A stretch of DNA of 64,000 bases from Bacteroidales bacterium (GTDB taxonomy: Bacteria > Bacteroidota > Bacteroidia > Bacteroidales > UBA7960): positions 1,009 through 65,008 of the forward strand of contig DATIKH010000004.1 in NCBI GenBank assembly GCA_035477775.1. Reading direction: 5' to 3'. Positions 9,273-50,705 of this stretch are shown here, in pieces; within the stretch, counting starts at the first letter, position 1; each line of letters starts with the position of its first letter. A model generated the notes under the pieces. That model searched no databases. It was not told where the DNA came from and was given only the letters and a program-made list of their open reading frames with translations. The position numbers were made by a program, and so were the translations under genes.

Positions 9273-9746
9273 TTAAAAAACATACCTTATAGTAAGTCCG
9301 GCTCCAATCCAGAATCTGGTAACAGGTATCAAGTCGATTGAAGGGATCAGATCAACTCCGATACTGATAGGAATATCTTCGATTTTGTACTCCATACCTA
9401 CTACCCCAGATGCTCCAAGCACTGTTTGACCTCCCTCAACATCCCAAGATGGATGATAAACCCCATCGTAAAAGCCCACAAAACCACCTCCACCATAATA
9501 CCATCTCAAACCCGGCACATCAAAAGCACCCACATGACGCTGATACAGAACGGTAAGGAGCAATCCCCTGTGGTGAAATGCTCCAACAAATTCCAAAGCA
9601 TCGCTGTCTGATAGAAATTGTTTGAAGGACACCCCTGAGAATACGCCTCCGCGAATACCAATCCCCGAATTGTAATCCTGAGCCCTGCCCGCTTGTACCA
9701 GCAGAAGGACGAAGCATAAAGACAAAATTATTTTTTTCATTGGCAA
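9273..9746 (-). CDS. Small outer-membrane beta-barrel protein
   Basis: 157 aa with a signal peptide (MKKIILSLCFVLLLVQAGRAQ), Gly/aromatic-rich alternating strands and a C-terminal aromatic residue (..IRYVF). Confidence 0.7.
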   Translation of the reverse strand: MPMKKIILSLCFVLLLVQAGRAQDYNSGIGIRGGVFSGVSFKQFLSDSDALEFVGAFHHRGLLLTVLYQRHVGAFDVPGLRWYYGGGGFVGFYDGVYHPSWDVEGGQTVLGASGVVGMEYKIEDIPISIGVDLIPSIDLIPVTRFWIGAGLTIRYVF

Positions 9747-10047
9747 TAGTTTTAAAAATTAGTTTTAGCGATTCTTGAAGTGAATTATTACTGGTTTTAA
9801 AAAACCATAACGAAAACCCAGCACGAAAACGTCCAATATCTGGTATTTATTTCCAGCTTGTTTCAATCTTGTTATTTTAAGAAATTCATAAATTAAATCA
9901 TTTATCTGCAAGCATTTAGGTCGTATTGCGGATTCAATCTATGTTTTTCGAGTAAACAACAAAATTAATCATTTCTATTAATTGGAAAACTCTAAATCTG
10001 ACGTTGTTTTTTCTACACTTAAAAAAAGAGCATAAGTCTTTCTCGAG

Positions 10048-11181
10048 TTACTGCAAATTCAGAATCACGCTTACGGGAAAATGGTCGGAGTAGGTCTGAT
10101 TTCCGGTTCTGAAATTCACCGGTGTAAATTCGGCACTGTGCATGATATAATCAATTCTAAAACCGGGAATAGCAATCAAATAGGTTCTACCCATTCCAAG
10201 ACCGCTTCTGAAAGCATCGCAAAGTTCATCGGAAAGTTGTCTGTAAACAAAGGATGTCGGGGTGTCGTTAAAGTCGCCAGTCAAGATAACCGGATACGGG
10301 CTGTTTCTGATATGTTCGGCTACTTTTTCCGCTTGGCTTGCCCGCCAGATAAAGGCCCTCCTGAGCCTCCGAAGGATTATCCGGCTATTCTCCTGGAAAT
10401 TGCCATTCTGGGCTTCATGCAGCGTATTGATCATGTTATCGACAAAGAGGTGATCCTCGCGGCTAAGTCCGATGGACTCCAGATGCAGGTTGTAAACCCG
10501 AATGGTATCTTCTCCAATTTTGATATCGGTGTAAATGCATAGGTTTCCGGCGTTTGTTCTGAACATGATCTTGCCCCTGTTCACGATGGGGTAGGCGGAG
10601 AAGGTTGCTAACCCGAAGTAATTTTGGTACCTCGAAAATCGGGTATATTCGAAATGCACATGCCTTGCTCGTAAAAAGGTCCGCATGGTGTCTAAGGTTC
10701 GGAATTCTCCCTTACGGTCGAGTACAAACTCCTGAAAACTTAGAATGTCAGCATCTTTATTATCAAGAAAATTGAAAATATTGTTTCGGTATGCAAAATT
10801 CAACTCCCAACCTGGCATGTAGTTGTAAAGGCCGAAATTCCGTACGTTGTAACTCAGCACCTCCAGGTTCTTTCCTGTTTCGGGCAGGGGTTTATTTACG
10901 TCATTAATTTGTAAAAGGTTTCCGACATGGCTAAGCCCTACCAGGATTGTAATGGCCGAAATCCAGAAATACTTTTTCCAGGTCAATAGCCAAAAAACCA
11001 AAAACAGAAAATTAAAAAAAAGAAGGGCGGGATAGGCAAGACCCAAAAATGCCAGTGGCCAGAACTTTTCGGGACTAATAAATGCGGCCAGATACGACAG
11101 CAACAATATGAATGCCGCAACCCCATTGAAAAACAACAGAACTTTTGTTGTAAAAGGCGGTCTTTTTTTAACGTTTACCAC
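10048..11181 (-). CDS. Endonuclease/exonuclease/phosphatase (EEP) family membrane protein
   Basis: 377 aa with three N-terminal TM helices followed by an EEP fold (LSYNVRNF, LSFQEF, GDFNDTP, SDHFPV). Confidence 0.85.
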   Translation of the reverse strand: MVNVKKRPPFTTKVLLFFNGVAAFILLLSYLAAFISPEKFWPLAFLGLAYPALLFFNFLFLVFWLLTWKKYFWISAITILVGLSHVGNLLQINDVNKPLPETGKNLEVLSYNVRNFGLYNYMPGWELNFAYRNNIFNFLDNKDADILSFQEFVLDRKGEFRTLDTMRTFLRARHVHFEYTRFSRYQNYFGLATFSAYPIVNRGKIMFRTNAGNLCIYTDIKIGEDTIRVYNLHLESIGLSREDHLFVDNMINTLHEAQNGNFQENSRIILRRLRRAFIWRASQAEKVAEHIRNSPYPVILTGDFNDTPTSFVYRQLSDELCDAFRSGLGMGRTYLIAIPGFRIDYIMHSAEFTPVNFRTGNQTYSDHFPVSVILNLQ

Positions 11182-23170: not shown

Positions 23171-23250
23171 GGCAGAGGGCAGAGGGCAGAGGGCAGAGGG
23201 CAGAGGGCAGAGGGCAGAGGGCAGGGGGCAGAGGGCAGAGGGCAGAGGGC
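23171..23250 (+). repeat. Heptanucleotide microsatellite (GGCAGAG) x 11 plus a partial unit
   Basis: Directly readable: 11 tandem 7-nt units with one variant unit (GGCAGGG at 23220). It starts 6 nt after the stop of the YbaK-like gene. Read as GGG-CAGA, it satisfies the G3N4 G-quadruplex pattern many times over. Confidence 0.95.
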
Positions 23251-23391
23251 ACCCTTCGACTTCGCGCAGGGCAAGTGGGGTAGATTTGAGAATGGGTATT
23301 AACCCCAACACTCCAAATCCGAAAGCCGATACTCACGTATTAAATCTTAACATCAACTTTTACCTCGACATTAACCTTAACCTGAATTACT

Positions 23392-42427: not shown

Positions 42428-42516
42428 GAGCATTATTTTGCCAAGGCTGCGACCAGAATGATAACTTTACAAATTTATTCTAATTGAGCCTGTCGAAGTT
42501 AAAACAGACCAAAATA

Positions 42517-44055
42517 ATGTTCGAACAAACTTTTAAAAATATTGACGATATACTTCACAAAGACGCGGGTTGCGGCAGTGAATTGGACTATGTGGAGCAA
42601 ACCTCTTGGATTTTGTTCCTCAAATACTTGGACGATTTGGAGCGTGACCGTGCCACGGCAGCCGAATTGACAGGGAAAACCTACACGCCGATTATTGACA
42701 TTGATTACCGTTGGACAAAATGGGCTGCACCAAAGATACGACGAACTCAGCCTTCGAAAAACGGAAAGGCCACTGAGCGTGTCGAAGTGGACCATAATGC
42801 ACTTACAGGCGATGACCTTACCGACTTTGTAAACAACAAACTGTTTCCTTACCTCAAAAAGTTTAAGACGAGGGCCGAGAGTGCGGACACCATTGAATAC
42901 AAGATTGGCGAGATTTTCAGCGAACTGAAAAACCGCATACAAAGCGGTTACAATTTGCGTGAAGTGATTAACCGCATTGATGAGTTGCGTTTCCGAACCC
43001 ATGCGGAAAAGCACGAAATGAGCCACCTGTATGAAGACAAAATCAAGAATATGGGCAATGCAGGGCGAAACGGTGGCGAATATTACACACCCCGACCGCT
43101 CATTACCACCATTGTAAAAGTGGTTGCCCCAAAAATTGGCGACAAAATTTATGACGGTGCATGCGGTTCGGCAGGTTTCCTTTGCGAAGCGTTCGACTAC
43201 CTGAAAAACCGCCCTTCGGCAGGCTCAGGGAGCGGTTTATCTACCAAAGAAACCGAGATACTGCAAAAACGCACATTTTACGGCAAAGAGAAAAAATCGC
43301 TGGCTTACATTATCGGCATTATGAATATGATTTTGCATGGTGTGGAAGCACCAAACATCATACATACCAACACGCTTGCCGAAAACCTTGCCGACATACA
43401 GGAAAAAGACCGTTACGATGTGGTGCTTGCCAATCCGCCATTTGGTGGAAAGGAACGTGCCGAAGTGCAACAAAACTTCCCCATAAAAACCGGCGAAACC
43501 GCTTCGCTCTTTTTGCAGCACTTTATTAAAATACTGAAAGCGGGTGGCAAAGCAGGTGTGGTAATTAAAAACACCTTTTTGAGCAATACCGACAATGCAA
43601 CGGTTGCTATTCGTAAAACTTTACTGGAAAGTTGCAATCTGCACACCGTGTTGGATTTGCCCGGTGGCACTTTTACCGGCGCTGGTGTAAAAACCGTGGT
43701 GCTGTTTTTTGAAAAAGGCAAGCCCACGCAAAAGGTTTGGTTTTACCAGTTGAACCTAGACCGCAATTTGGGCAAAATCAATCCACTCAACGAAAACGAT
43801 TTGGCTGATTTTCTATCACTTTACGCTTCGAGAGCCTCAGGGTCCGAAGGTCCCGAAACCGAAAACTCTTGGAATGTGGACGTACGGCCCCTGAGCCTGC
43901 CGAAGGGGACCGAAGCCACCTACGACCTGAGCGTAAAGAACCCGAACAAAAAAGAAGAGGTTCGGCTACGCTCACCACACGAGATATTGGAAGAAATGAA
44001 AGCATTGGATGAAGAAAGTGCAGAAATCCTTAACTCAATTTTAGAACTGATATGA
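42517..44055 (+). CDS. hsdM: Type I restriction-modification system, DNA methyltransferase subunit
   Basis: ORF 42484..44055 with an ATG at 42517. It has the HsdM N-domain, SAM motif I DGACGSAGFL and catalytic motif IV NPPFGG. It overlaps hsdS by 4 nt. Confidence 0.93.
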   Translation: MFEQTFKNIDDILHKDAGCGSELDYVEQTSWILFLKYLDDLERDRATAAELTGKTYTPIIDIDYRWTKWAAPKIRRTQPSKNGKATERVEVDHNALTGDDLTDFVNNKLFPYLKKFKTRAESADTIEYKIGEIFSELKNRIQSGYNLREVINRIDELRFRTHAEKHEMSHLYEDKIKNMGNAGRNGGEYYTPRPLITTIVKVVAPKIGDKIYDGACGSAGFLCEAFDYLKNRPSAGSGSGLSTKETEILQKRTFYGKEKKSLAYIIGIMNMILHGVEAPNIIHTNTLAENLADIQEKDRYDVVLANPPFGGKERAEVQQNFPIKTGETASLFLQHFIKILKAGGKAGVVIKNTFLSNTDNATVAIRKTLLESCNLHTVLDLPGGTFTGAGVKTVVLFFEKGKPTQKVWFYQLNLDRNLGKINPLNENDLADFLSLYASRASGSEGPETENSWNVDVRPLSLPKGTEATYDLSVKNPNKKEEVRLRSPHEILEEMKALDEESAEILNSILELI

Positions 44056-45260
44056 AAAATTGGGTAGTAAAAAAATTAGGTGAAGTTTATGATGTCAGAG
44101 ATGGCACTCACGATTCTCCGAGATACGTAAATGAGGGATATGCTCTAATTACCTCAAAAAATTTGAAGAATGATAGTTTGAACTATGATAATGTAAACTA
44201 CATAACCGAACAAGATTACATTAATATCAATAAGAGAAGTAAAGTTGATGTAGGTGATGTATTGTTTGCAATGATTGGAACAATTGGAAATCCTATTGTG
44301 ATAAAAGATGAACCAGATTTTGCAATAAAGAATGTGGCACTTTTAAAAGTGCCTGAAAATCAAAACAGCTATTTCTTAAAGTATTATTTGGATTCAAGCC
44401 TTGTAATAGACAAAATGTCAAGAGATGCTAAGGGAGCTACACAAAAATTTGTTGGCTTGGGCTATCTTAGAAATTTTGAAATCCCCCTTCCCCCACTCCC
44501 CGAGCAACAACGCATTGTTTCCATATTAGATGCAGCCTTTGCGTTGATTTCGAGAGCCTCAATCAACGCTGAAAGGTGCCTGAGCCTGTCGAAGGCACTT
44601 TTTGAAAGCTATTTGCAGCTTGCCCTGAGCCCGGTCGAAGGGGGGGTGTTTGGTGGTTCGACAGGCTCACCAACCAAACGGGATGGGTGGGAAGAGAAGA
44701 CAATCGGAGAAATCGGAAGTCCCAAAATGTGCAAGCGAATTTTTAAAGAGCAAACCACAGCAGTAGGTGAAATTCCATTTTATAAAATCGGCACTTTCGA
44801 GAAGGAGCCAGATGCTTACATTTCAAAAGAAATTTATGATGAATTCCGTGCAAAATATTCATTTCCTAAAAAAGGTGATGTTTTGATTTCTGCATCAGGA
44901 ACAATCGGGAGACGGGTAAGATATGATGGTGAGCCAGCATATTTCCAAGACTCAAATATTGTGTGGATTGAAAATGATGAGAAACAAGTTTCAAATGATT
45001 TTCTCTATGAATTTTATGGTACTTGCAATTGGGGTTCAACAAAAGGTGCAACGATTTCAAGACTGTATAATGACAATTTAAAAAGCATTAAAATCAGTTT
45101 CCCAAAATCTAAAGAAGCCCAACAAATTATCGTCCGCCAATTAAATGCCCTGCGAGCCGAAACGCAAAAGCTGGAAGCCATTTATCAGCAAAAACTTTTA
45201 AATTTGGAAGAGCTGAAAAAGAGCATATTGCAAAAGGCGTTTAGGGGAGAATTGAATTAA
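44052..45260 (+). CDS. hsdS: Type I restriction-modification system, specificity subunit
   Basis: 402 aa with two target-recognition domains separated by conserved helices (LPPLPEQQRIVSILD... and ...EAQQIIVRQLNAL...LKKSILQKAFRGEL). Confidence 0.92.
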   Translation: MKNWVVKKLGEVYDVRDGTHDSPRYVNEGYALITSKNLKNDSLNYDNVNYITEQDYININKRSKVDVGDVLFAMIGTIGNPIVIKDEPDFAIKNVALLKVPENQNSYFLKYYLDSSLVIDKMSRDAKGATQKFVGLGYLRNFEIPLPPLPEQQRIVSILDAAFALISRASINAERCLSLSKALFESYLQLALSPVEGGVFGGSTGSPTKRDGWEEKTIGEIGSPKMCKRIFKEQTTAVGEIPFYKIGTFEKEPDAYISKEIYDEFRAKYSFPKKGDVLISASGTIGRRVRYDGEPAYFQDSNIVWIENDEKQVSNDFLYEFYGTCNWGSTKGATISRLYNDNLKSIKISFPKSKEAQQIIVRQLNALRAETQKLEAIYQQKLLNLEELKKSILQKAFRGELN

Positions 45261-45262
45261 TT

Positions 45263-46378
45263 ATGACAAAAAAAGATTTTCATAAGTCAAAATTCGACAA
45301 AGGCACTCAGTCTAAGCTTGAGGTATTCAAGGAGTACTTCAAAGAAAGTTTTCCTGTTTTCCTTCACAGTCCTTACTTCGAAGAGATTTTTATTTACGAT
45401 TTCTTTGCCGGCCAAGGCTTAAATAGCAAAAAAGAGTTTGGTACGGCATTTAATATTCTAAACGAAATTAAGCCTTATTGCAAAGACATAAGAAAAAGCA
45501 CGAAAAAGGTTTATATTATTCTGAATGACAAAGGGGAGTCTGATGTTTTAAAGTCAAATGTGTCAGACTTTTTCAATTCCTGTAAAACAAATTGTCAAGG
45601 AGAGTGTGTGTTTGCATTGAATAATAACCTAATTGTAAAATCTGAAGATTTTGAAACCTATTTCCCAAAGATATACCCTGCTATGCTTGGTAGGAAAAGA
45701 GCAGCAAAACTCTTGTATTTAGATCCTTTCAAATTTGTTATAGATAGCGATTTGTTCAATAAATTGATAAATATTCCTTCGGCAGATTTTATCAGTTTTA
45801 TGCCTTCATTCTTTTTAAGACGTTTCCCCGATGTGTCCGCTTTTAATAAATATATCAATACCAGGGAAATTGATTTTAAAAAATCACGACCTGAACATTG
45901 CCACCGGGTTATTGCCAATTATTTCAATACACTTGTTCCTCCAGATAAGGAATATTATATGGGTTGCTTTTCCATAAGGAAAGATTCTGGATATAATGGT
46001 CTCCTATTTGGGAGTAATCATACTTTGGGTGCTGAAAAATTCCAGAAAGTATGTTGGAAAATTGATGAACTAACAGGCGAAGCCGATTACAATATTGACA
46101 GAGAGTTAACCTATGACAAACAGGGAGTTCTTTTTGAGGAAGCGAGAATTCCTACAAAAATCAAACAATTCAACACTGACTTAGAAAACCAGATTATTCA
46201 GGGCAAAATAAAAACTGATATTGATTCATACAAGTTTGCACTTAAAAATCGCTGTTTAGTTAAACATTCCGCTGATAAGTTAAAAGAGTTAATGAAAGAA
46301 GCGAAAATCGAGGAGTTTAAAATAACTAACAACGATATTCACAAAATTAAAATAGCCACACAAATAAAATTAAAGTAG
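45263..46378 (+). CDS. TcmP-like 'three-Cys-motif partner' protein; methyltransferase-like motifs, function unknown
   Basis: 371 aa, starting 2 nt after the hsdS stop. It contains YDFFAGQG (res 45-52, resembling SAM-MTase motif I DxFxGxG) and YLDPF (res 152-156, resembling motif IV and the Trm1 DPFG). The family name is recalled from NCBI/TIGRFAM naming and was not searched. Confidence 0.7.
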   Translation: MTKKDFHKSKFDKGTQSKLEVFKEYFKESFPVFLHSPYFEEIFIYDFFAGQGLNSKKEFGTAFNILNEIKPYCKDIRKSTKKVYIILNDKGESDVLKSNVSDFFNSCKTNCQGECVFALNNNLIVKSEDFETYFPKIYPAMLGRKRAAKLLYLDPFKFVIDSDLFNKLINIPSADFISFMPSFFLRRFPDVSAFNKYINTREIDFKKSRPEHCHRVIANYFNTLVPPDKEYYMGCFSIRKDSGYNGLLFGSNHTLGAEKFQKVCWKIDELTGEADYNIDRELTYDKQGVLFEEARIPTKIKQFNTDLENQIIQGKIKTDIDSYKFALKNRCLVKHSADKLKELMKEAKIEEFKITNNDIHKIKIATQIKLK

Positions 46379-46380
46379 CT

Positions 46381-47133
46381 ATGGCACACAAGATTGAATG
46401 GACAGAGCAAACATGGAATCCATCGGTTGGTTGTTCAAAAATTAGTTCAGGTTGCCAAAACTGCTATGCAGAATCAATGGCACTTCGTTTACAAGCCATG
46501 AATGTTGATGGGTACGAAAATGGATTTAAGTTTAATATAGTATCTGGCAGATTAAATGAACCTTTTAAGAAGAAAAAACCCAGAGTATTCTTTGTAAACT
46601 CAATGAGTGATATTTTTCATCAAGAGATGCCTGAAGAATACTTAAATAGGATTTTTGAAGTAATAGAAAAAACACCAAAGCACACATTTCAGATTTTAAC
46701 AAAGCGCGCCGATAGGATGTATCAGTACCTTTCAAAGCGAGAAATTCCTAAAAATATTTGGTTAGGAGTAACTGTTGAAAACAGAAAAGAAGGTTTACCA
46801 AGAATTGACAAACTAAGACAATTACTAGCTACAGTGCTATTTCTATCGTTAGAACCCTTACTTGAAGATTTGGGTGAAATTAACTTACATAATATCGACT
46901 GGGTAATTGTTGGAGGTGAAAGCGGAAACAAAGCTCGCCCTATGGACAAAGAATGGGTACTCAGTATCAAAAAGCAATGTGAAAAGCAGAATGTTGCCTT
47001 TTTCTTTAAGCAATGGGGAACTTGGGGTGCAGACAAAGTGAAACGTAATAAAAGACTAAATGGCAAAGAGCTAAATGGCAAAATTTGGCATCAGTTTCCT
47101 GAAGTAATTGAGAAGCAATTTGCTGTCGTTTAA
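46381..47133 (+). CDS. DUF5131 / phage Gp37-Gp68 family protein with an N-terminal three-Cys motif
   Basis: 250 aa, starting 2 nt after the upstream stop. It contains WNPSVGCSKISSGCQNCYA (Cys18-x6-Cys25-x2-Cys28), FVNSMSDIFH, QILTKR, SLEPLLE and DWVIVGGESG. Confidence 0.8.
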   Translation: MAHKIEWTEQTWNPSVGCSKISSGCQNCYAESMALRLQAMNVDGYENGFKFNIVSGRLNEPFKKKKPRVFFVNSMSDIFHQEMPEEYLNRIFEVIEKTPKHTFQILTKRADRMYQYLSKREIPKNIWLGVTVENRKEGLPRIDKLRQLLATVLFLSLEPLLEDLGEINLHNIDWVIVGGESGNKARPMDKEWVLSIKKQCEKQNVAFFFKQWGTWGADKVKRNKRLNGKELNGKIWHQFPEVIEKQFAVV

Positions 47134-47304
47134 TTTTCAGAAAAATAATGAGTAAAACACAAGCAAAATCATTCCGCCATTCGGCAGCTTTTGGCAAACG
47201 CATAGTGTATTACGTTATAGGCTTAATGCTTAAAGATGGTTTGGATGTGTAATTACCAATGTTAGATGATGATGCAATAGATGCCGTTGTAAAAAAACCG
47301 ACAA

Positions 47305-48197
47305 CCACAACGCAACTCCGAAGGAGGTGACAAGGTTATAGAAACAAGAATAATCAACCACAACGCAACCCCGTAGGGATGACAAGAATATTGAAAAAAA
47401 TGACGTACGAATAAAAAACCCCGAAGGGATGATATGATTATAATGATGAACATACCATCAGCCATAAAACCCCGAAGGGGTGAAATAAATTCCACCCCTT
47501 CGGGGTTAGGGGATATGCACCATATTGATTTCTATAATCATAACACCCCTTCGGGGTTAAAATCATAGCATTATGGCAGGCACATTTTCACAAATTTATA
47601 TTCAATACGTTTTTGCCGTAAAAGGTCGTGAAAACCTATTGCTAAAGCCGTGGTGTGATGAGGTGTTTAAATATATGGCAGGCATTATCAAGGGAAAAAA
47701 TCAGAAACCACTTATCGTTAATGGTGTTGCAGACCATGTTCATGTTTTTGTGGGTTTAAAACCTGCAATGAGCATTTCGGATTTAGTTCGGGACATCAAA
47801 AACAATTCTTCCAATTTCATCAACGAACAAAAATTCCTGAAGGGAAAATTCTCGTGGCAAGAAGGATACGGTGCATTTTCCTATGCCCATTCGCAAATTG
47901 AGAATGTGTATCAATACATTGCTAATCAGGAAGAACACCATAAGAAGAAATCATTTAAAGTAGAATACCTTGATTTCCTTCAAAAATTTAACATTGAATA
48001 CAACGAAAAATATTTATTTGAATGGGTGGATTAATAATATCACCCCTTCGGGGTTTAATTGACTTTTGGTTTGCATTGAGCTATAATCTTTACATCCCTT
48101 CGGGATTAAAGAAGATAACCGAACACAAACCCCGTAAGGATGGCATTTTTGCAGAAAACGAAATTATATCATTTTAACAACCCCAAAGGGGTGAAAA
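47305..48197 (+). mobile_element. REP-hairpin array surrounding a Y1 transposase gene (REP/RAYT-type unit)
   Basis: Ten copies of a small hairpin (core AACCCCGAAGGGGTGA or its complement). Copies in one orientation are at 47305-335, 47358-386, 47415-433 and 47466-485. Copies at 47492-510 and 47542-560 are inverted. The transposase gene follows, then inverted copies at 48040-058 and 48091-110, then copies at 48127-143 and 48179-197 in the first orientation. Confidence 0.8.
47573..48034 (+). CDS. IS200/IS605-like Y1 (HUH) transposase, REP-associated (RAYT-like)
   Basis: 153 aa with the HUH motif ADHVHVFVG, the catalytic Tyr context VYQYIANQEEHH and the N-terminal FSQIYIQYVFAVKGRE typical of IS200-like TnpA. 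Confidence 0.85.
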   Translation: MAGTFSQIYIQYVFAVKGRENLLLKPWCDEVFKYMAGIIKGKNQKPLIVNGVADHVHVFVGLKPAMSISDLVRDIKNNSSNFINEQKFLKGKFSWQEGYGAFSYAHSQIENVYQYIANQEEHHKKKSFKVEYLDFLQKFNIEYNEKYLFEWVD

Positions 48198-48206
48198 GAT
48201 TATAAA

Positions 48207-50705
48207 ATGAACGAAGCAGAAACCAGAGCTGAACTCATAGACCCAATGCTAAAGGCTTGTGGTTGGGGCGTTGTGGAAGGCTCTAAAATCCTTCGTGAAT
48301 ACAACATAACGCTTGGTAAAATTCAAACAGGCGGTGGTTTCGACTGCCTCACCAACCGCAACCAGGTACGGAGGGGCAAAAGAGAAATTGCCGATTATGT
48401 ATTGGTGTATAAAGGCTTAAAACTAGCTATAATAGAAGCCAAAAGTGATGAATTGGAAGTGAGCGAAGGAGTGATGCAAGCCAAAAAGTATGCACAGAAA
48501 CTTCAATTAGAAACCACTTACAGCACCAACGGTAAAGAGATATACCAAATCTGCATGAAAACAGGCGAAGAAGGTTTGGTTACAGACTTTTTAAGCCCAG
48601 AAAAACTTTGGAATAAAACATACCCGGTGGCTTCGGCAGGCGTTCGTCTGAGCTCAGCCGAAGGCTCAGCCACCGAAGAAGAATGTGCTCGCCTTGAGCT
48701 TGTAGATAGGTGGAGAGAAAAATTTGCCAATGTTCCGTTTGAAGATAAAAGCGGGACTTGGCAACTCAGGTTTTATCAGGAGATTGCAGTTAAGAACTCA
48801 TTGGAAGCTTTATCCAACGGTAAAGAACGCATCTTACTCACCCTTGCCACAGGAACTGGAAAAACCGCAATTGCTTTTCAAATTTCCTGGAAATTGTTTC
48901 AAACCCGTTGGACGGTTCAACAAACTCACCGACCACCGGGGGCTGAGCCTGTGGTAGCCCGAAGACCAAGAATCTTATTTTTAGCCGACCGTAATATATT
49001 AGCAGACCAAGCCTACAATTCATTTTCTGCTTTTCCTGATGATGTTCTGATTCGTATAAAACCAAATGAAATTCGAAATCGTGGCAGAGTCCCAACCAAC
49101 GGAAGTATATTTTTTACCATTTTCCAAACTTTTATGAGTGGAACGGATGAGTTTGGTAAACCTGCACCGTATTTTGGAGAATATCCTGCCGACTATTTTG
49201 ATTTTATCATCATTGACGAGTGCCACCGTGGCGGAGCCAATGACGAAAGCAACTGGCGGGGCATTTTGGAATATTTCAGTCCGGCAGTGCAATTGGGTTT
49301 AACCGCCACACCCAAACGAAAAGACAATGTGGACACTTACCGTTACTTTGGCGAACCAGTTTACATTTATTCGCTGAAAGAAGGCATCAATGATGGTTTT
49401 TTAACGCCATTTAAGGTAAAACGCATTAAAACCACGTTGGACGATTACCGCTATACTTCCGATGATACGATTGTAGAAGGTGAAATTGAAGAAGGCAAGT
49501 TGTATGAAGAAAAAGACTTTAACCGAACTATTGAAATAGTTGAGCGTGAAACAAAACGGGTAAACATATTTTTGGATGAAGCCAACCAAAACGAAAAGGC
49601 AATTATCTTTTGTGCCAATCAAGCACACGCTGCATTGATACGGGATTTGGTCAATCAGGAAAGATTTGAAAGAATTGGAAAATGGGCAAATGGGCAGCGC
49701 CACCCTGAGCTTGTCGAAGGGTATTGTGTTCGTGTAACTGCTAACGATGGCGAAGAGGGCGAAAGATTGTTACGAGAATTTCAGGACAACGAAAAAACAA
49801 TTCCAACCATACTGACTACTTCGCAAAAGCTCTCCACAGGAGTTGATGCAAGGAACATTCGGAATATCGTTTTGCTACGTCCAGTAAATTCAATGATTGA
49901 GTTTAAACAAATCGTTGGTCGTGGCACACGGTTGTTTGACGGTAAGGAGTTTTTTACCATTTACGACTTTGTAGATGCTTACAAGCACTTTTCAGACCCA
50001 GAATGGGACGGTGAGCCAATCGGAGAAGAACCAAAGGAACCTACCTCATATCCAACATCTGAATCGAATGAACCACAAGTGACTTCAGACTCAGGGGAGT
50101 CAACTCTAAAGAAGCAGAAAATAAAAATCAAACTGCGAAACGGAAAAGAGAGAGAAATCAAACACATGGTTTCAACTTCGTTTTGGAGTGCAGATGGCAA
50201 GCCCATTTCAGCAGAAGAATTTTTGAGCAATCTGTTTGGAGAGTTGCCTAAACTTTTCAAAGACGAAGAAGAATTACGGAAACTTTGGAGTAATCCGATG
50301 ACCCGTAGGACTTTATTAGAAAAACTGGACGATGCAGGTTTCCCAAAACCTGATTTACTGACTTTACAAAAGTTGGTTGATATGGAAAAAAGCGACTTGT
50401 ACGATGTTTTGGAATATGTTTTTAATGGCGACTACATAGCAATGACACGAGAAGCAAGAGCAAAGGCAGCCGAAGCGACAATATTTGCCTTACTCAACGA
50501 CAAACAGAAAGAATTTATATCATTCGTCTTGAGCAAGTACATTGAAACAGGCGTTGAAGAACTCGACCAGGAGAAACTTCCAATATTGCTGACAAACAAA
50601 TATCATTCGTTGGAAGATGCTAAAGAAATTTTAGGAGACGTGGCAAACATAAGCCGACTGTTTATAGAATTTCAGGAACATTTGTACAAACAAAAAGTTG
50701 CGTAA
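48207..50705 (+). CDS. hsdR: Type I restriction endonuclease, R subunit
   Basis: 832 aa with the N-terminal nuclease domain (NEAETRAELIDPML...ADYVL...IIEAK), SF2 helicase motifs (TGTGKT, IIDECHRG, TATP, QIVGRGTR) and a C-terminal EcoEI-R-like helical domain. Confidence 0.93.
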   Translation: MNEAETRAELIDPMLKACGWGVVEGSKILREYNITLGKIQTGGGFDCLTNRNQVRRGKREIADYVLVYKGLKLAIIEAKSDELEVSEGVMQAKKYAQKLQLETTYSTNGKEIYQICMKTGEEGLVTDFLSPEKLWNKTYPVASAGVRLSSAEGSATEEECARLELVDRWREKFANVPFEDKSGTWQLRFYQEIAVKNSLEALSNGKERILLTLATGTGKTAIAFQISWKLFQTRWTVQQTHRPPGAEPVVARRPRILFLADRNILADQAYNSFSAFPDDVLIRIKPNEIRNRGRVPTNGSIFFTIFQTFMSGTDEFGKPAPYFGEYPADYFDFIIIDECHRGGANDESNWRGILEYFSPAVQLGLTATPKRKDNVDTYRYFGEPVYIYSLKEGINDGFLTPFKVKRIKTTLDDYRYTSDDTIVEGEIEEGKLYEEKDFNRTIEIVERETKRVNIFLDEANQNEKAIIFCANQAHAALIRDLVNQERFERIGKWANGQRHPELVEGYCVRVTANDGEEGERLLREFQDNEKTIPTILTTSQKLSTGVDARNIRNIVLLRPVNSMIEFKQIVGRGTRLFDGKEFFTIYDFVDAYKHFSDPEWDGEPIGEEPKEPTSYPTSESNEPQVTSDSGESTLKKQKIKIKLRNGKEREIKHMVSTSFWSADGKPISAEEFLSNLFGELPKLFKDEEELRKLWSNPMTRRTLLEKLDDAGFPKPDLLTLQKLVDMEKSDLYDVLEYVFNGDYIAMTREARAKAAEATIFALLNDKQKEFISFVLSKYIETGVEELDQEKLPILLTNKYHSLEDAKEILGDVANISRLFIEFQEHLYKQKVA

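What the first reader, a model, noticed from the sequence alone, without database searches (positions are those of the whole stretch)
42484..49721. GC-rich palindromic motif CTGAGCCTGTCGAAGG and its complement recurs in-frame inside hsdM, hsdS and hsdR (RPE-like elements?)
By eye I find at least ten copies or half-copies of a ~16-20 nt motif, all within or just upstream of the three hsd genes, and every reading frame stays open.

| Coordinates | Sequence | Location and encoded peptide |
|---|---|---|
| 42484-42500 | ttgagcctgtcgaagtt | hsdM leader |
| 43212-43230 | cccttcggcaggctcaggg (complement) | PSAGSGS |
| 43827-43850 | ttcgagagcctcagggtccgaagg | hsdM |
| 43888-43908 | cccctgagcctgccgaagggg | PLSLPKG |
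| 44549-44561 and 44580-44595 | ...ctgagcctgtcgaagg | CLSLSK |
| 44623-44674 | ccctgagcccggtcgaagggg...ggttcgacaggctcaccaacc | hsdS inter-TRD linker; the two arms can pair with each other; ALSPVEGGVFGGSTGSPT |
| 48336-48357 | ggtttcgactgcctcaccaacc | GFDCLTN |
| 48648-48671 | ctgagctcagccgaaggctcagcc | hsdR |
| 48914-48964 | ggttcaacaaactcacc...ctgagcctgtggtagcccgaag | TVQQTHRPPGAEPVVARR |
| 49703-49721 | ccctgagcttgtcgaaggg | HPELVEG |

Several copies sit where related Hsd proteins, as I remember them, have no residues, such as the N-terminal nuclease loop of HsdR and the region before the PRILFLADRN helicase segment. Those look like net in-frame insertions. At least one copy (44580) looks length-neutral.

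The only established precedent I know for palindromic repeats tolerated in-frame within genes is the Rickettsia palindromic elements.

I saw only weak look-alikes elsewhere in the window (10361-10375 and 23252-23271). The motif is therefore strongly concentrated in the R-M locus.
Basis: seen in the sequence. Interest (0 to 1): 0.66.

Follow-up and report, generated by a model that had tools for sequence, protein, structure and literature searches.

The report
Tiny hairpin repeats inside restriction genes
About seventeen copies of a roughly 24-base hairpin-forming repeat are inserted, without breaking the reading frame, into the leader and three genes of a widely transferred type I restriction-modification operon; similar in-frame repeats are known, but this family and its link to one operon appear undescribed.

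Summary
CTGAGCCTGTCGAAGG (up to 3 mismatches) occurs 10 times in the window against 0.24 expected, and 9 of those lie in the hsd locus. A covariance model finds about 17 copies in the hsdM leader, hsdM, hsdS and hsdR, and one elsewhere.

Alignments with 120 close and 80 distant homologues and PDB 3H1T show that the copies are derived in-frame insertions at a few hot spots. The baseline is HsdR 775 aa and HsdM 484 aa; here they are 832 and 511 aa. Two copies are length-neutral overwrites.

The repeat is not a simple palindrome. It is a conserved core, TGAGC-N2-3-G(T/C)CGAA, closed by a covarying 3-6 bp stem, and often moves as a 24-nt unit. Units occur singly, nested, in tandem or as inverted doublets. 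Exact copies occur in over 120 viral and over 120 metagenomic contigs and on Moraxella and Sphingobium plasmids. Rfam and the searchable literature have no match.

Across 67 hsd loci the units are about 11 times denser inside the operon than in flanking DNA. Orthologous copies decay.

Best reading: selfish REP/SDR/RPE-like mini-hairpins trapped in permissive loops of a promiscuous R-M operon and carried along with it. The mobilising enzyme is unknown.

The parts
42479..42503 (+). Unit in the hsdM 5' leader (stem TAAT/GTTA, core TGAGCCTGTCGAA). It is a ~23-24 nt insertion relative to the unit-free leader of allele L002.
   Evidence: CM E = 2.4e-5. Leader comparison of 62 loci: present in window, L001 and L327, absent from L002 and the rest.
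42520..44055 (+). hsdM, the type I methyltransferase subunit. It is 511 aa against a 484-aa baseline.
   Evidence: Pfam N6_Mtase and HsdM_N. Alignments A2 and 56 loci.
42736..42758 (-). Decayed unit (…CGACGAACTCAG…). It is the upstream partner of an inverted pair that flanks native KNGK codons. The ortholog is intact in L001 719-743.
   Evidence: Codon alignments. CM hit in L001.
42768..42792 (+). Unit in hsdM (GCCAC-TGAGCGTGTCGAA-GTGG; peptide ATERVEV). With the preceding copy it makes a net 33-nt insertion.
   Evidence: CM E = 1.1e-6.
43209..43233 (-). Unit in hsdM (peptide RPSAGSGSG): 27 nt replace 9 nt. Allele L001 carries the exact reverse complement of this 27-nt CCG…CGG segment at the same site.
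   Evidence: CM E = 3.9e-7.
43821..43845 (-). Degenerate unit in hsdM (ASRASGSEG), an 18-nt insertion.
   Evidence: CM E = 0.032.
43886..43910 (+). Unit in hsdM (CCCC-TGAGCCTGCCGAA-GGGG; peptide PLSLPKG), a 15-nt net insertion.
   Evidence: CM E = 7.8e-7.
43955..43980 (-). Length-neutral unit in hsdM (VRLRSPH against baseline AALRQPQ). Also present in L001, L327 and L160.
   Evidence: CM E = 9.6e-5.
44052..45260 (+). hsdS, the specificity subunit. The units lie in the central conserved region between the two target-recognition domains.
   Evidence: Pfam Methylase_S x2; alignment A3.
44543..44567 (-). Degenerate unit in the hsdS central conserved region (LISRASI).
   Evidence: CM E = 0.071.
44575..44599 (+). 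Perfect unit with a 5-bp stem (GTGCC/GGCAC; peptide RCLSLSKA). Its 24 nt replace 24 native nt (QNLKNAKE), so it is length-neutral.
   Evidence: CM E = 4.1e-7. The fold has a 10-bp stem, z = -2.1 as DNA and -2.6 as RNA.
44620..44645 (+). 24-nt unit CTTGCCCTGAGCCCGGTCGAAGGG (peptide LALSPVEG), inserted just before the native GVF codons.
   Evidence: CM E = 8.4e-7.
44651..44675 (-). Unit in opposite orientation (GGTTCGACAGGCTCACC; peptide GGSTGSPT), inserted just after the native GVF codons.
   Evidence: CM E = 5.1e-6.
48207..50705 (+). hsdR, an EcoAI/FtnUII-family restriction subunit. It is 832 aa against a 775-aa baseline.
   Evidence: NCBIfam NF046051, 756.8 bits against a cutoff of 550.
48333..48357 (-). 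Decayed unit within a 33-nt insertion (GFDCLTNRNQV) at hot spot R1, after GKIQTGG. It is absent from L001, from all 80 genome-collection loci and from PDB 3H1T.
   Evidence: CM E = 1.1.
48624..48671 (.). Hot spot R2. An older minus-strand unit (GCTTCGGCA|GGCTCAGC) is split by a window-specific 24-nt plus-strand unit (48630-48653, GGCGTTCGTCTGAGCTCAGCCGAA). The inner unit is a near inverted copy of the outer one.
   Evidence: CM 48643-48668 E = 4.3e-4 and 48629-48659 E = 2.5. Filled versus empty comparison with L001, L324, L325 and L326.
48689..48713 (+). Decayed unit (CCTTGAGCTTGTAGATAGG; peptide RLELVDR) at hot spot R2. The ortholog is intact in L001 6206-6230.
   Evidence: CM E = 4.3.
48910..48969 (.). 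Hot spot R3. An inverted pair of decayed units (GGTTCAACAAACTCACC … CTGAGCCTGTGGTAGCC; peptide TVQQTHRPPGAEPVVA) replaces NLKRDGS. The orthologs are intact in L001 and L324.
   Evidence: CM E = 3.8 and 0.61.
49700..49724 (+). Unit at hot spot R4 (CACC-CTGAGCTTGTCGAAGGG; peptide HPELVEG). It is the 3' end of a 13-aa net insertion that replaces NAKSKDPF.
   Evidence: CM E = 4.7e-7.
23249..23274 (-). The only probable unit outside the hsd locus. It is intergenic and directly follows a (GGCAGAG)n heptamer array at 23172-23250.
   Evidence: CM E = 0.0059; sequence.

Best explanation
The motif copies are members of a widespread, apparently undescribed family of very small, non-autonomous hairpin repeats of the REP/SDR kind.

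Anatomy (shown). One unit has a conserved core, TGAGC-N2-3-G(T/C)CGAA, which can close as U-A, tandem G·A/A·G, G-C and C-G around a mini-loop. The core sits between a 3-6 bp stem whose sequence varies but stays complementary. With a short 5' extension the unit moves as a quantum of about 24 nt (8 codons). Five of its six reading frames lack stop codons.

Insertion and tolerance. Units landed in the 5' leader and in surface-loop hot spots of HsdM, HsdS and HsdR of an EcoAI-family type I R-M operon that is transferred between phyla. That they are insertions is shown. That the sites are surface loops is inferred from alignment gaps, including gaps against PDB 3H1T.

Why they accumulate (inferred). 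An in-frame copy inside a gene under selection can only be removed by a precise deletion. Copies therefore build up like passport stamps and are inherited with the operon as it moves.

Local change and decay (shown by allele comparison). Once present, units spawn local changes: tandem duplication, inverted duplication into their own loop, in-place inversion and short length-neutral overwrites. These fit hairpin-driven template switching or short-patch conversion. The copies then decay by point mutation.

Function and mobilisation (inferred). The units most likely do nothing for restriction or modification. The enzyme responsible for primary insertion is not identified. A hairpin- and ssDNA-specific HUH/Y1 (RAYT-like) transposase acting in trans is the leading candidate.
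For: Not chance:
- 10 hits against 0.24 expected.
- CM hits with E from 1e-7 to 1e-4.

Derived insertions:
- 38 of the 120 closest HsdR homologues are 775 aa. The others carry variable inserts after baseline residues 43/44, 133, 204, 440-448 and elsewhere; the simplest are single units such as TELVEV, PALSGVEG and AHRPN.
- Nearly all of 80 loci from more than 10 phyla, and PDB 3H1T, lack the inserts.

Hairpin unit:
- The three stem pairs next to the core are paired in 87-91% of 141 units, with CG, GC, UA and AU all used.
- The covariation score is 0.409 against 0.158 ± 0.012 for shuffles (0 of 500 reach it), and at most 0.18 when the partners are slid.

24-nt quantum and mobility:
- Clean filled-versus-empty sites exist: L001 hsdM CTTGCCCTGAGCGGAGCCGAAGGG and window 48630-48653.
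- The exact 23-mer occurs in over 120 metagenome contigs and the 18-mer in over 120 viral contigs.
- The 64-nt doublet is on Moraxella and Sphingobium plasmids.
- A split outer core downstream, the nested self-insertion signature, occurs in 9 of 138 viral copies against 0.24 expected.

Travels with the operon:
- 69 core hits in 472 kb of operon against 11 in 848 kb of flank (p = 1e-20).
- Loci with operon copies have no flank copies.
- All 41 CM hits in L001 and L324-L327 lie inside the operons.

No conservation as a functional site:
- Orthologous copies differ, and several window copies are decayed where L001 is intact.
- Both orientations are used about equally.

Permissive loops collect other junk too:
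- Heptamer-repeat peptides, a Cys-rich insert and a GIY-YIG domain occur at the same or nearby sites in homologues.

Precedent:
- Intragenic REPs are concentrated in DNA repair and replication genes (PMC3733652).
Against: - Density inside the hsd genes (about 2 per kb in the window and in L001) is roughly ten times that seen in contigs that were selected for containing a unit. Passive hitch-hiking has to be stretched to explain this.
- None of the six unit-laden alleles examined sits in a genome with units in its flanks. The unit-rich donor hosts that the model needs have not been observed.
- Allele-specific gains after the split of window and L001 imply continuing activity in hosts that look unit-poor.
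- No mobilising enzyme was found. The RAYT in the operon is flanked by a different hairpin.
- Surface-loop location was not verified on a structure; the AF2 model was unusable at pLDDT 40.
Confidence: 0.6

Rival explanations
1. The units are functional cis-elements selected in this operon. Possible roles: DNA or RNA hairpins that tune expression of the long hsd transcript; recombination hot spots that let alleles swap segments (units flank both target-recognition domains of hsdS); or 8-residue length modules that alter HsdS geometry and hence specificity.
For: - Strong operon-specific enrichment across unrelated hosts whose flanks lack units.
- A unit sits in the 5' leader 20-35 nt before the hsdM start in three alleles.
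- In hsdS the units lie at the N-terminus, in the central conserved region and in the C-terminal conserved region, so they bracket both TRDs.
- A tandem array of seven units forms the linker of an NTase-HsdS fusion in L184 and L175.
- Presence and absence are mosaic among alleles, as recombination would produce.
Against: - Most family members, including the majority of close relatives, lack the units and are intact.
- Both orientations occur, which argues against a sequence-specific RNA role.
- Orthologous copies decay at core positions.
- The same unit is abundant in unrelated intergenic and viral contexts with no hsd genes.
Confidence: 0.15
2. The units are REPs being actively written into the operon by a hairpin-specific Y1/HUH transposase (RAYT) that is itself a recurrent passenger of the operon. 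The local enrichment would then reflect activity of that enzyme in cis or on the same replicon.
For: - A Y1_Tnp gene lies immediately upstream of hsdR in 8 loci: window, L124, L129, L156, L164, L180, L325 and L326. That is 4 of 11 loci with 3 or more units against 4 of about 70 without.
- Sources name members of its 90% cluster RayT.
- It is flanked by arrays of its own hairpins, CCCC-GAA-GGGG or GCCC-TGAAA-GGGC, whose stem and loop ends resemble the outer part of the unit, CCC-TGA…GAA-GGG.
- Nested insertion into the loop and the fixed 24-nt size fit a cut-and-join enzyme that recognises a hairpin.
Against: - The most heavily loaded alleles (L001 with 15 units, L324, L327, L160) have no Y1_Tnp in the operon.
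- Four RAYT-bearing operons have no units.
- Genes next to the RAYT (TcmP, DUF5131) are unit-free.
- The RAYT-flanking hairpins lack the conserved core.
- No RAYT was found near any of about 240 unit-bearing viral or metagenomic loci, nor on the plasmids that carry doublets.
- The association may simply be phylogenetic, reflecting a Bacteroidota subclade.
Confidence: 0.15
3. The motif reflects the R-M system's own recognition or methylation sequence, or is a compositional or coding coincidence, rather than a repeat element.
For: - The core contains GAG…GTC, reminiscent (from my memory, not tested) of the EcoAI site GAG(N7)GTCA.
Against: - The spacing is 3-4 nt, not 7.
- The motif occurs in several reading frames and in both orientations, and it coincides with indels.
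- Shuffles give 0.24 expected hits.
- Identical units abound where no hsd genes exist.
- hsdS specificity domains differ between alleles that share the same units.
Confidence: 0.03

Closest known systems
Rickettsia palindromic elements (RPE; Ogata et al. 2000, from my own knowledge; referred to in PMC3733652)
   Same: Selfish palindromic or hairpin repeats are inserted in frame into protein-coding genes. They are tolerated because they land in permissive regions, and homologue alignments show them as insertions.
   Different: - RPEs are about 100-150 bp and, as far as I know, confined to Rickettsia. These units are about 24 nt (doublets about 64 nt) and occur in many phyla and in viral contigs.
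- RPEs are dispersed over the host genome. Here the copies are concentrated in one horizontally transferred operon.
REP / REPIN elements and intragenic REPs (Bertels & Rainey 2011, PMC3116915; Di Nocera et al. 2013, PMC3733652)
   Same: - Short imperfect hairpins of 20-40 nt occur as single units and as inverted doublets that can fold into a larger hairpin.
- Some lie inside genes, preferentially genes of DNA replication and repair.
- They are proposed to be mobilised by Y1 (RAYT) transposases, one of which sits in this operon.
   Different: - There is no GTAG or CGTC tag.
- The conserved part is the 13-14 nt interior and the stem varies, whereas in REP families the stem is usually conserved.
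- No RAYT flanked by these units was found.
- In this window they are almost entirely intragenic.
Small dispersed repeats SDR1-8 of heterocystous cyanobacteria (Elhai et al. 2008, Genome Res 18:1484; cited in PMC3116915; text not held, features recalled from memory)
   Same: - Size class of 21-27 nt.
- A shared hairpin supported by compensatory changes.
- Insertion into copies of themselves, giving nested structures.
- Association with tandem heptamer repeats (one case here, 23172-23274).
- Mechanism unknown.
   Different: - SDRs were reported as essentially confined to one cyanobacterial subgroup. This family is found in Bacteroidota, Ignavibacteriota, Proteobacteria, probably Acidobacteria, and phage-like contigs.
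- Sequence relatedness could not be checked.
- In-frame accumulation in one operon was not, to my knowledge, described for SDRs.
MITEs inserted in ORFs (e.g. QMITE of Coxiella, PMC5896051)
   Same: Non-autonomous repeats that can sit in frame in genes and add peptide segments.
   Different: MITEs are 50-500 bp with terminal inverted repeats and target-site duplications derived from an IS. These units are far smaller, show no target-site duplication at clean filled-versus-empty sites, and have no IS parent that I could identify.

Membership tests
Rickettsia palindromic elements (RPE) | Element length about 100-150 bp, folding as one long palindrome | tested here: not met
   Units are 19-27 nt and inverted doublets about 64 nt.
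Rickettsia palindromic elements (RPE) | In-frame insertion within ORFs, seen as indels against homologues | tested here: met
Rickettsia palindromic elements (RPE) | Sequence similarity to the RPE-1 to RPE-8 consensus | not tested
REP / REPIN | Short (20-40 nt) imperfect palindrome able to form a stem-loop | tested here: met
   Covarying 3-6 bp stem around the core: covariation 0.409 against 0.158 for shuffles, 0 of 500 reaching it.
REP / REPIN | Inverted doublets (REPIN architecture) | tested here: met
   Full elements in viral contigs, plasmids, L183 4963-5030 and 14634-14700, and window 44620-44675.
REP / REPIN | Conserved terminal GTAG or CGTC tetranucleotide (PMC3733652) | tested here: not met
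   The flank profile of 120 copies shows only (A)GC conserved 5' and nothing 3'. Neither GTAG nor CGTC was seen by eye at unit ends in alignment A4; the tags were not searched for.
REP / REPIN | A cognate RAYT gene flanked by the same repeats | tested here: not met
   The Y1_Tnp genes in the window, L325 and L326 are flanked by different hairpins. No RAYT lies near about 240 unit-bearing loci or on the doublet-bearing plasmids. Whole genomes could not be searched.
REP / REPIN | High-copy, mainly extragenic dispersal in the host genome | tested here: inconclusive
   In this window there is 1 copy outside and about 17 inside the operon. On plasmids and in metagenomes copies look intergenic. Genome-wide counts were not possible.
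Cyanobacterial SDR elements | 21-27 nt unit with a conserved hairpin supported by compensatory changes | tested here: met
   24-nt quantum; covariation.
Cyanobacterial SDR elements | Nested insertion into copies of itself | tested here: met
   9 of 138 viral copies have a split outer core against 0.24 expected. Window 48624-48671 is a further case.
Cyanobacterial SDR elements | Sequence identity to SDR1-8, and the cyanobacterial host range | not testable with these tools
   The paper (PMC2527708) is not held. The host range observed here is non-cyanobacterial.
MITE | Terminal inverted repeats plus a target-site duplication, 50-500 bp, related to an IS | tested here: not met
   Clean filled-versus-empty sites show no TSD (ACA|unit|TAC; GGTGGT|unit|AGG). 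Size is 24-33 nt.
EcoAI/FtnUII-family type I R-M (the host genes) | HsdR scores above the curated NCBIfam cutoff; the operon has an N6_Mtase HsdM and a two-TRD HsdS | tested here: met
   NF046051 at 756.8 bits against a cutoff of 550. Pfam N6_Mtase, HsdM_N and Methylase_S x2. PDB 3H1T, E = 5e-120.

The most novel reading that the evidence does not exclude
This would be a previously unrecognised, cross-phylum class of about 24-nt mobile hairpins, among the smallest mobile DNA units known. The units would be specifically linked to a promiscuous type I R-M operon in one of three ways: targeted to it, propagating autonomously within it by hairpin-templated copying, or exploited by it. Exploitation could mean acting as 8-residue modules and recombination joints that diversify the Hsd subunits, or as inverted doublets that bracket and help mobilise the operon, as in L183.
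Probability: 0.25. Interest if true: 0.78.

Novelty: new variant of a known kind. Interest (0 to 1): 0.6.

Why it matters
**Extension of a known phenomenon.** If confirmed, this takes selfish DNA inside proteins well beyond Rickettsia, to a tiny and very widely distributed hairpin family.

**Insertion-tolerant sites.** The copies give a natural map of sites in HsdM, HsdS and HsdR that accept insertions.

**A historical marker.** The units would work as passport stamps for tracing the host history of a horizontally transferred defence operon.

**Open questions made concrete.**
- What enzyme moves a 24-nt hairpin?
- Why are such elements over-represented in genes that handle DNA, as already noted for intragenic REPs?

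**Practical consequence.** These inserts inflate and diversify annotated Hsd proteins, and they generate spurious peptide motifs (PELVEG, LSLSKG, FDKLR, VRQAH and the like) in databases.

Tried and rejected
- **Rfam.** No family covers the unit in the window at E ≤ 1, in 15 viral loci or in 20 metagenome loci. The only hits were tRNA and Acido-Lenti-1 elsewhere on the contigs.
- **Literature string searches.** Twelve DNA and peptide versions of the motif found nothing relevant. Elhai 2008 is not held.
- **AlphaFold2 of HsdR** with a 21-sequence alignment gave mean pLDDT 40.5, so loop mapping was abandoned. The 3H1T sequence alignment was used instead.
- **Folding energies alone are weak evidence.** Z-scores range from -2.6 to +1, and the paired-arms fold for hsdS is not favoured. 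Covariation was used instead.
- **Hammerhead, k-turn, group II D5 and tRNA T-arm resemblances** were considered by eye and dropped, because the conserved positions do not fit.
- **Test for purifying selection on core columns.** Identity of 52-59% was below that of native third positions (65%). This comparison is confounded by non-orthologous inserts sharing columns, so it was replaced by site-by-site inspection.
- **Search for a cognate RAYT.** None was found on plasmids carrying the doublet or in unit-bearing viral and metagenome loci.
- **A first regex with a fixed 3-nt spacer** missed most copies and was corrected to 2-3 nt (onward).
- **A peptide search of the 5.8-billion protein set** for in-frame copies in other families was considered and not run, because an 8-20 aa query cannot reach significance.

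Full report
**1. What is at the coordinates**

The region holds an operon:
- hsdM, 42520-44055
- hsdS, 44052-45260
- a TcmP-like ORF, 45263-46378
- a DUF5131 ORF, 46381-47133
- an intergenic stretch with a Y1 (IS200/RAYT-type) transposase gene, 47573-48034
- hsdR, 48207-50705, which is EcoAI/FtnUII family (NCBIfam NF046051, 756.8 bits)

**2. Is the motif more than chance?**

CTGAGCCTGTCGAAGG with up to 3 mismatches gives 10 hits in the 64-kb window against 0.24 expected, and 9 of them are in the hsd locus. The 12-mer core with up to 2 mismatches gives 19 hits against 2.9 expected.

A covariance model built later (R1) finds 10 strong hits, all between 42479 and 49724. It finds one probable copy elsewhere, at 23249-23274 (E = 0.006, intergenic).

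Counting decayed copies that are recognisable through intact orthologues in a sister allele, the operon carries about 17 units.

**3. The copies are insertions**

*Close homologues.* The 120 closest HsdR homologues are 78-87% identical to the window protein. Thirty-eight of them are exactly 775 aa. The rest are longer through variable segments at a handful of sites.

In alignment A1 the window's motif copies fall exactly in four of these sites:
- After GKIQTGG: GFDCLTNRNQV.
- After WNKTYP: a 24-residue insertion; the window reads PVASAGVRLSSAEGSATEEECARLELVDR where the baseline has AEQNN.
- After TRW: TVQQTHRPPGAEPVVA against NLKRDGS.
- After LVNQ: ERFERIGKWANGQRHPELVEG against NAKSKDPF.

*Distant homologues.* Eighty further loci came from species-representative genomes. 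They span Bacteroidota, CPR phyla, Planctomycetes, Chloroflexi, Proteobacteria, Spirochaetes and Methanosarcina. Nearly all lack these segments. So does the solved homologue 3H1T (E = 5e-120).

*HsdM and HsdS.* The same holds for HsdM: five sites, 511 aa against 484 aa. In HsdS two 8-residue segments flank the native GVF.

*Length-neutral copies.* Two copies replace native sequence without changing length:
- hsdS 44575-44599 replaces 24 native nt.
- hsdM 43955-43980 replaces about 22 nt, at a place where the native sequence already matched the unit at 11 of 21 positions.

The insertion reading stands.

**4. Anatomy of the repeat**

*Size.* Codon-level comparison of the window with a sister allele (L001, 87-91% aa identity) and a baseline allele (L002) gives clean filled and empty sites. 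Several are exactly 24 nt:
- L001 hsdM ACA|CTTGCCCTGAGCGGAGCCGAAGGG|TAC
- window hsdR 48630-48653
- the hsdS overwrite
- a tandem duplication in L001 hsdR

*Core and stem.* I collected every match to the loop-only pattern TGAGC-N2-3-G(T/C)CGAA. The bases on either side are complementary although their sequence varies: CCC/GGG, GG/CC, CAC/GTG, CAT/ATG, GTGCC/GGCAC, GGTGGT/ACCACC and TAAT/ATTA.
- The first three flanking positions pair in 90-94% of 70 copies, against 42-55% after shuffling.
- On a 141-unit alignment the covariation score is 0.409, against 0.158 ± 0.012 for shuffles (0 of 500 reach it) and at most 0.18 when the partners are slid.

Its apparent A and B arms differ only in the stem.

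*Proposed fold (inferred).* The invariant core can be drawn as U-A, tandem sheared G·A/A·G, G-C, a bulged U and C-G closing a 2-3 nt loop. In some metagenomic copies that apex is expanded into a full stem-loop, which fits this drawing.

*Energies and frames.* Thermodynamic prediction alone is unimpressive, with z-scores from -2.6 to +1. Five of the six frames of the unit are open.

**5. Distribution elsewhere**

There it is embedded in several different composite intergenic repeats.
- Only a short 5' extension, (A)GC, is conserved beyond the 23-mer.
- Many viral copies form 64-nt inverted doublets: CCGTTCGC-unit-spacer-unit-ACGAACGG. That doublet occurs on plasmids of Moraxella osloensis, Sphingobium, Sphingomonas, Comamonas and others, in unannotated intergenic DNA.
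- None of about 240 unit-bearing loci encodes a relative of these Hsd proteins, apart from one distant HsdR hit.
- A split outer core, the signature of insertion into the loop of an older unit, follows 9 of 138 viral copies against 0.24 expected.
- Rfam has no family for the unit. Text searches for twelve versions of the motif found nothing.

**6. The link to the operon**

This is the unexpected part.

- In the window, L001 and four more insertion-bearing alleles fetched with 10-kb flanks (L324-L327), every covariance-model hit lies inside the hsd operon or its leader. There are about 55 hits in about 36 kb. About 109 kb of flanking host DNA, with different genes in each case, hold one hit.
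- Over 67 loci, the operon has 69 core matches in 472 kb and the flanks have 11 in 848 kb (p = 1e-20).
- Using only the unbiased genome set, the counts are 25 in 430 kb against 11 in 740 kb (p = 7e-5).
- Loci with operon copies have no flank copies, and the reverse also holds.
- 'Cargo' genes inside the operon are unit-free, except for one copy in RhuM. These include TcmP, DUF5131, the transposase and AlbA_2.
- The leader copy is itself a ~24-nt insertion relative to L002.

The units are therefore inherited with the hsd genes rather than drawn from the present host.

**7. Dynamics**

*Decay.* Orthologous copies are not conserved. Where L001 has intact cores at hot spots R2 and R3, the window has decayed ones (GTCGAA to GTAGAT; TTCGACAAGCTC to TTCAACAAACTC). 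L324 and L326 show other decay or partial deletion.

*Gains since window and L001 split:*
- An imported canonical 24-mer in L001 hsdM.
- A window-specific 24-nt unit inside an older unit. It is an inverted near-copy of that older unit, which suggests local template switching.
- A tandem duplication in L001.

*In-place inversion.* At one hsdM site the window and L001 carry the same 27-nt CCG…CGG segment in opposite orientations.

*Other inserts at the same loops.* In homologues these loops also hold unrelated inserts: heptamer-repeat peptides, a Cys-rich segment and a GIY-YIG domain. This marks them as generally permissive.

**8. Interpretation**

*Best supported reading (about 0.6).* The units are selfish mini-hairpin repeats of the REP/SDR/RPE kind. 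They are tolerated in frame at permissive loops and retained because only a precise deletion can remove them from a gene under selection. They are carried along by an unusually promiscuous R-M operon, then rearranged locally and left to decay.

*What is shown:* that the copies are insertions, the hairpin constraint, the 24-nt quantum, the wide distribution, the enrichment in the operon, and the decay.

*What is inferred:* the retention ratchet, the template-switch origin of the local copies, and the nature of the mobilising enzyme.

*Rival 1, a selected role (0.15).* The units might act in expression, recombination or HsdS geometry. The enrichment, the leader copy, the bracketing of the TRDs and a seven-unit tandem linker that fuses an NTase domain to HsdS in L184 keep this alive. 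The decay, the mixed orientation and the absence from most alleles weaken it.

*Rival 2, the operon's own Y1 transposase (0.15).* This gene lies just upstream of hsdR in eight loci, and sources name members of its cluster RayT. It is flanked by its own hairpins, CCCC-GAA-GGGG or GCCC-TGAAA-GGGC. However, the most heavily loaded alleles lack it, and its repeats lack the core.

*Rival 3, recognition site or chance (0.03).* Effectively excluded.

**9. Comparison with known systems**

The behaviour matches RPEs (in-frame, tolerated), but size rules out membership; RPE sequence was not compared and taxon was not assessed.

The unit matches REP/REPIN in hairpin form and in doublet architecture. Di Nocera et al. 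report intragenic REPs concentrated in DNA repair and replication genes (PMC3733652), which is a close parallel. The unit lacks the GTAG or CGTC tag and lacks a cognate RAYT.

It shares four features with the cyanobacterial SDR elements as I recall them: 21-27 nt size, a covarying hairpin, nested self-insertion and heptamer-repeat neighbours. Sequence relatedness could not be checked, and the host range differs.

I therefore rate it a new variant of a known kind. The family itself, its cross-phylum invariance and its concentration in one mobile defence operon appear undescribed in the sources I could search.

**10. Limits**

- No whole-genome census was possible.
- No structure-based loop mapping was done, because the AF2 model failed.
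- E-values from the short covariance model are rough, and some window copies were in its training set.

Noticed in passing
window 47280-48200: A REP-RAYT-like module sits inside the hsd operon. Eight copies of the hairpin ACCCCGAAGGGGTGA, in both orientations, flank a 153-aa Y1 transposase gene (47573-48034). They occur nowhere else in the window. Sources name members of the protein's 90% cluster 'REP element-mobilizing transposase RayT'.
   Followed up: yes
L124, L129, L156, L164, L180, L325, L326 (just upstream of hsdR in each): Y1_Tnp genes, 40-90% identical to one another, recur at the same position immediately upstream of hsdR in eight hsd loci. In L325 and L326 they are flanked by their own hairpins (GCCC-TGAAA-GGGC). 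This is a recurrent insertion site, or a stable passenger of this R-M family.
   Followed up: partly
window 23172-23274: A tandem array of about 11 copies of the heptamer GGCAGAG directly abuts the only probable hairpin unit outside the hsd locus. In L326, inverted heptamer arrays (GGATAAT)n and (CAATTGT)n flank a 23S_rRNA_IVP gene (9502-9557 and 9922-9977).
   Followed up: no
window 45263-47133: A TcmP-like protein (TIGR04474) and a DUF5131 protein lie as a pair between hsdS and hsdR. Other alleles carry different cargo at the same place: an OLD-TOPRIM ATPase, AlbA_2, a HATPase, 23S_rRNA_IVP or RhuM. The operon therefore has cassette-like insertion points.
   Followed up: partly
HsdR homologues P0008-P0010, P0015, P0017, P0020 and others, after baseline residue ~275: About 18 of the 120 closest HsdR homologues carry an in-frame GIY-YIG domain insert (PF01541) of about 115 residues inside the helicase region. 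This looks like a domesticated or invading homing-endonuclease module.
   Followed up: no
HsdR homologues P0027, P0084, P0116, after baseline residues ~552 and ~578: Cysteine-rich inserts (CKICGQNPCICEK… and CGQRPCVC) occur in the linker before the C-terminal EcoEI_R_C domain. They could form a zinc-binding module.
   Followed up: no
L184 3600-3760 (also L175 3038-3098): Seven tandem 24-nt units encode (LPKGDALS)7. They form the linker of a 529-aa fusion between a nucleotidyltransferase-like N-terminal domain and HsdS, in sponge-associated Gammaproteobacteria.
   Followed up: partly
L183 4963-5030 and 14634-14700: Two inverted doublets of the hairpin unit, reverse complements of each other, bracket a 9.6-kb segment that contains an hsd operon without internal units. 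This may be chance in a repeat-rich genome, or it may mark the boundaries of a mobile island.
   Followed up: no
window 10356-10379: A weak unit-like sequence (TCC-TGAGCCTCCGAA-GGA; CM E = 0.44) lies inside the 377-aa ORF 10048-11181 on the minus strand, where it encodes IILRRLRRA. Whether it is an insertion was not checked.
   Followed up: no
L221, L224, L225 (metagenome contigs): Acido-Lenti-1 RNA (RF01687) hits occur on three contigs that also carry the exact 23-nt unit. This hints that these unit-bearing contigs are acidobacterial. The RNA motif itself is unrelated to the unit.
   Followed up: no
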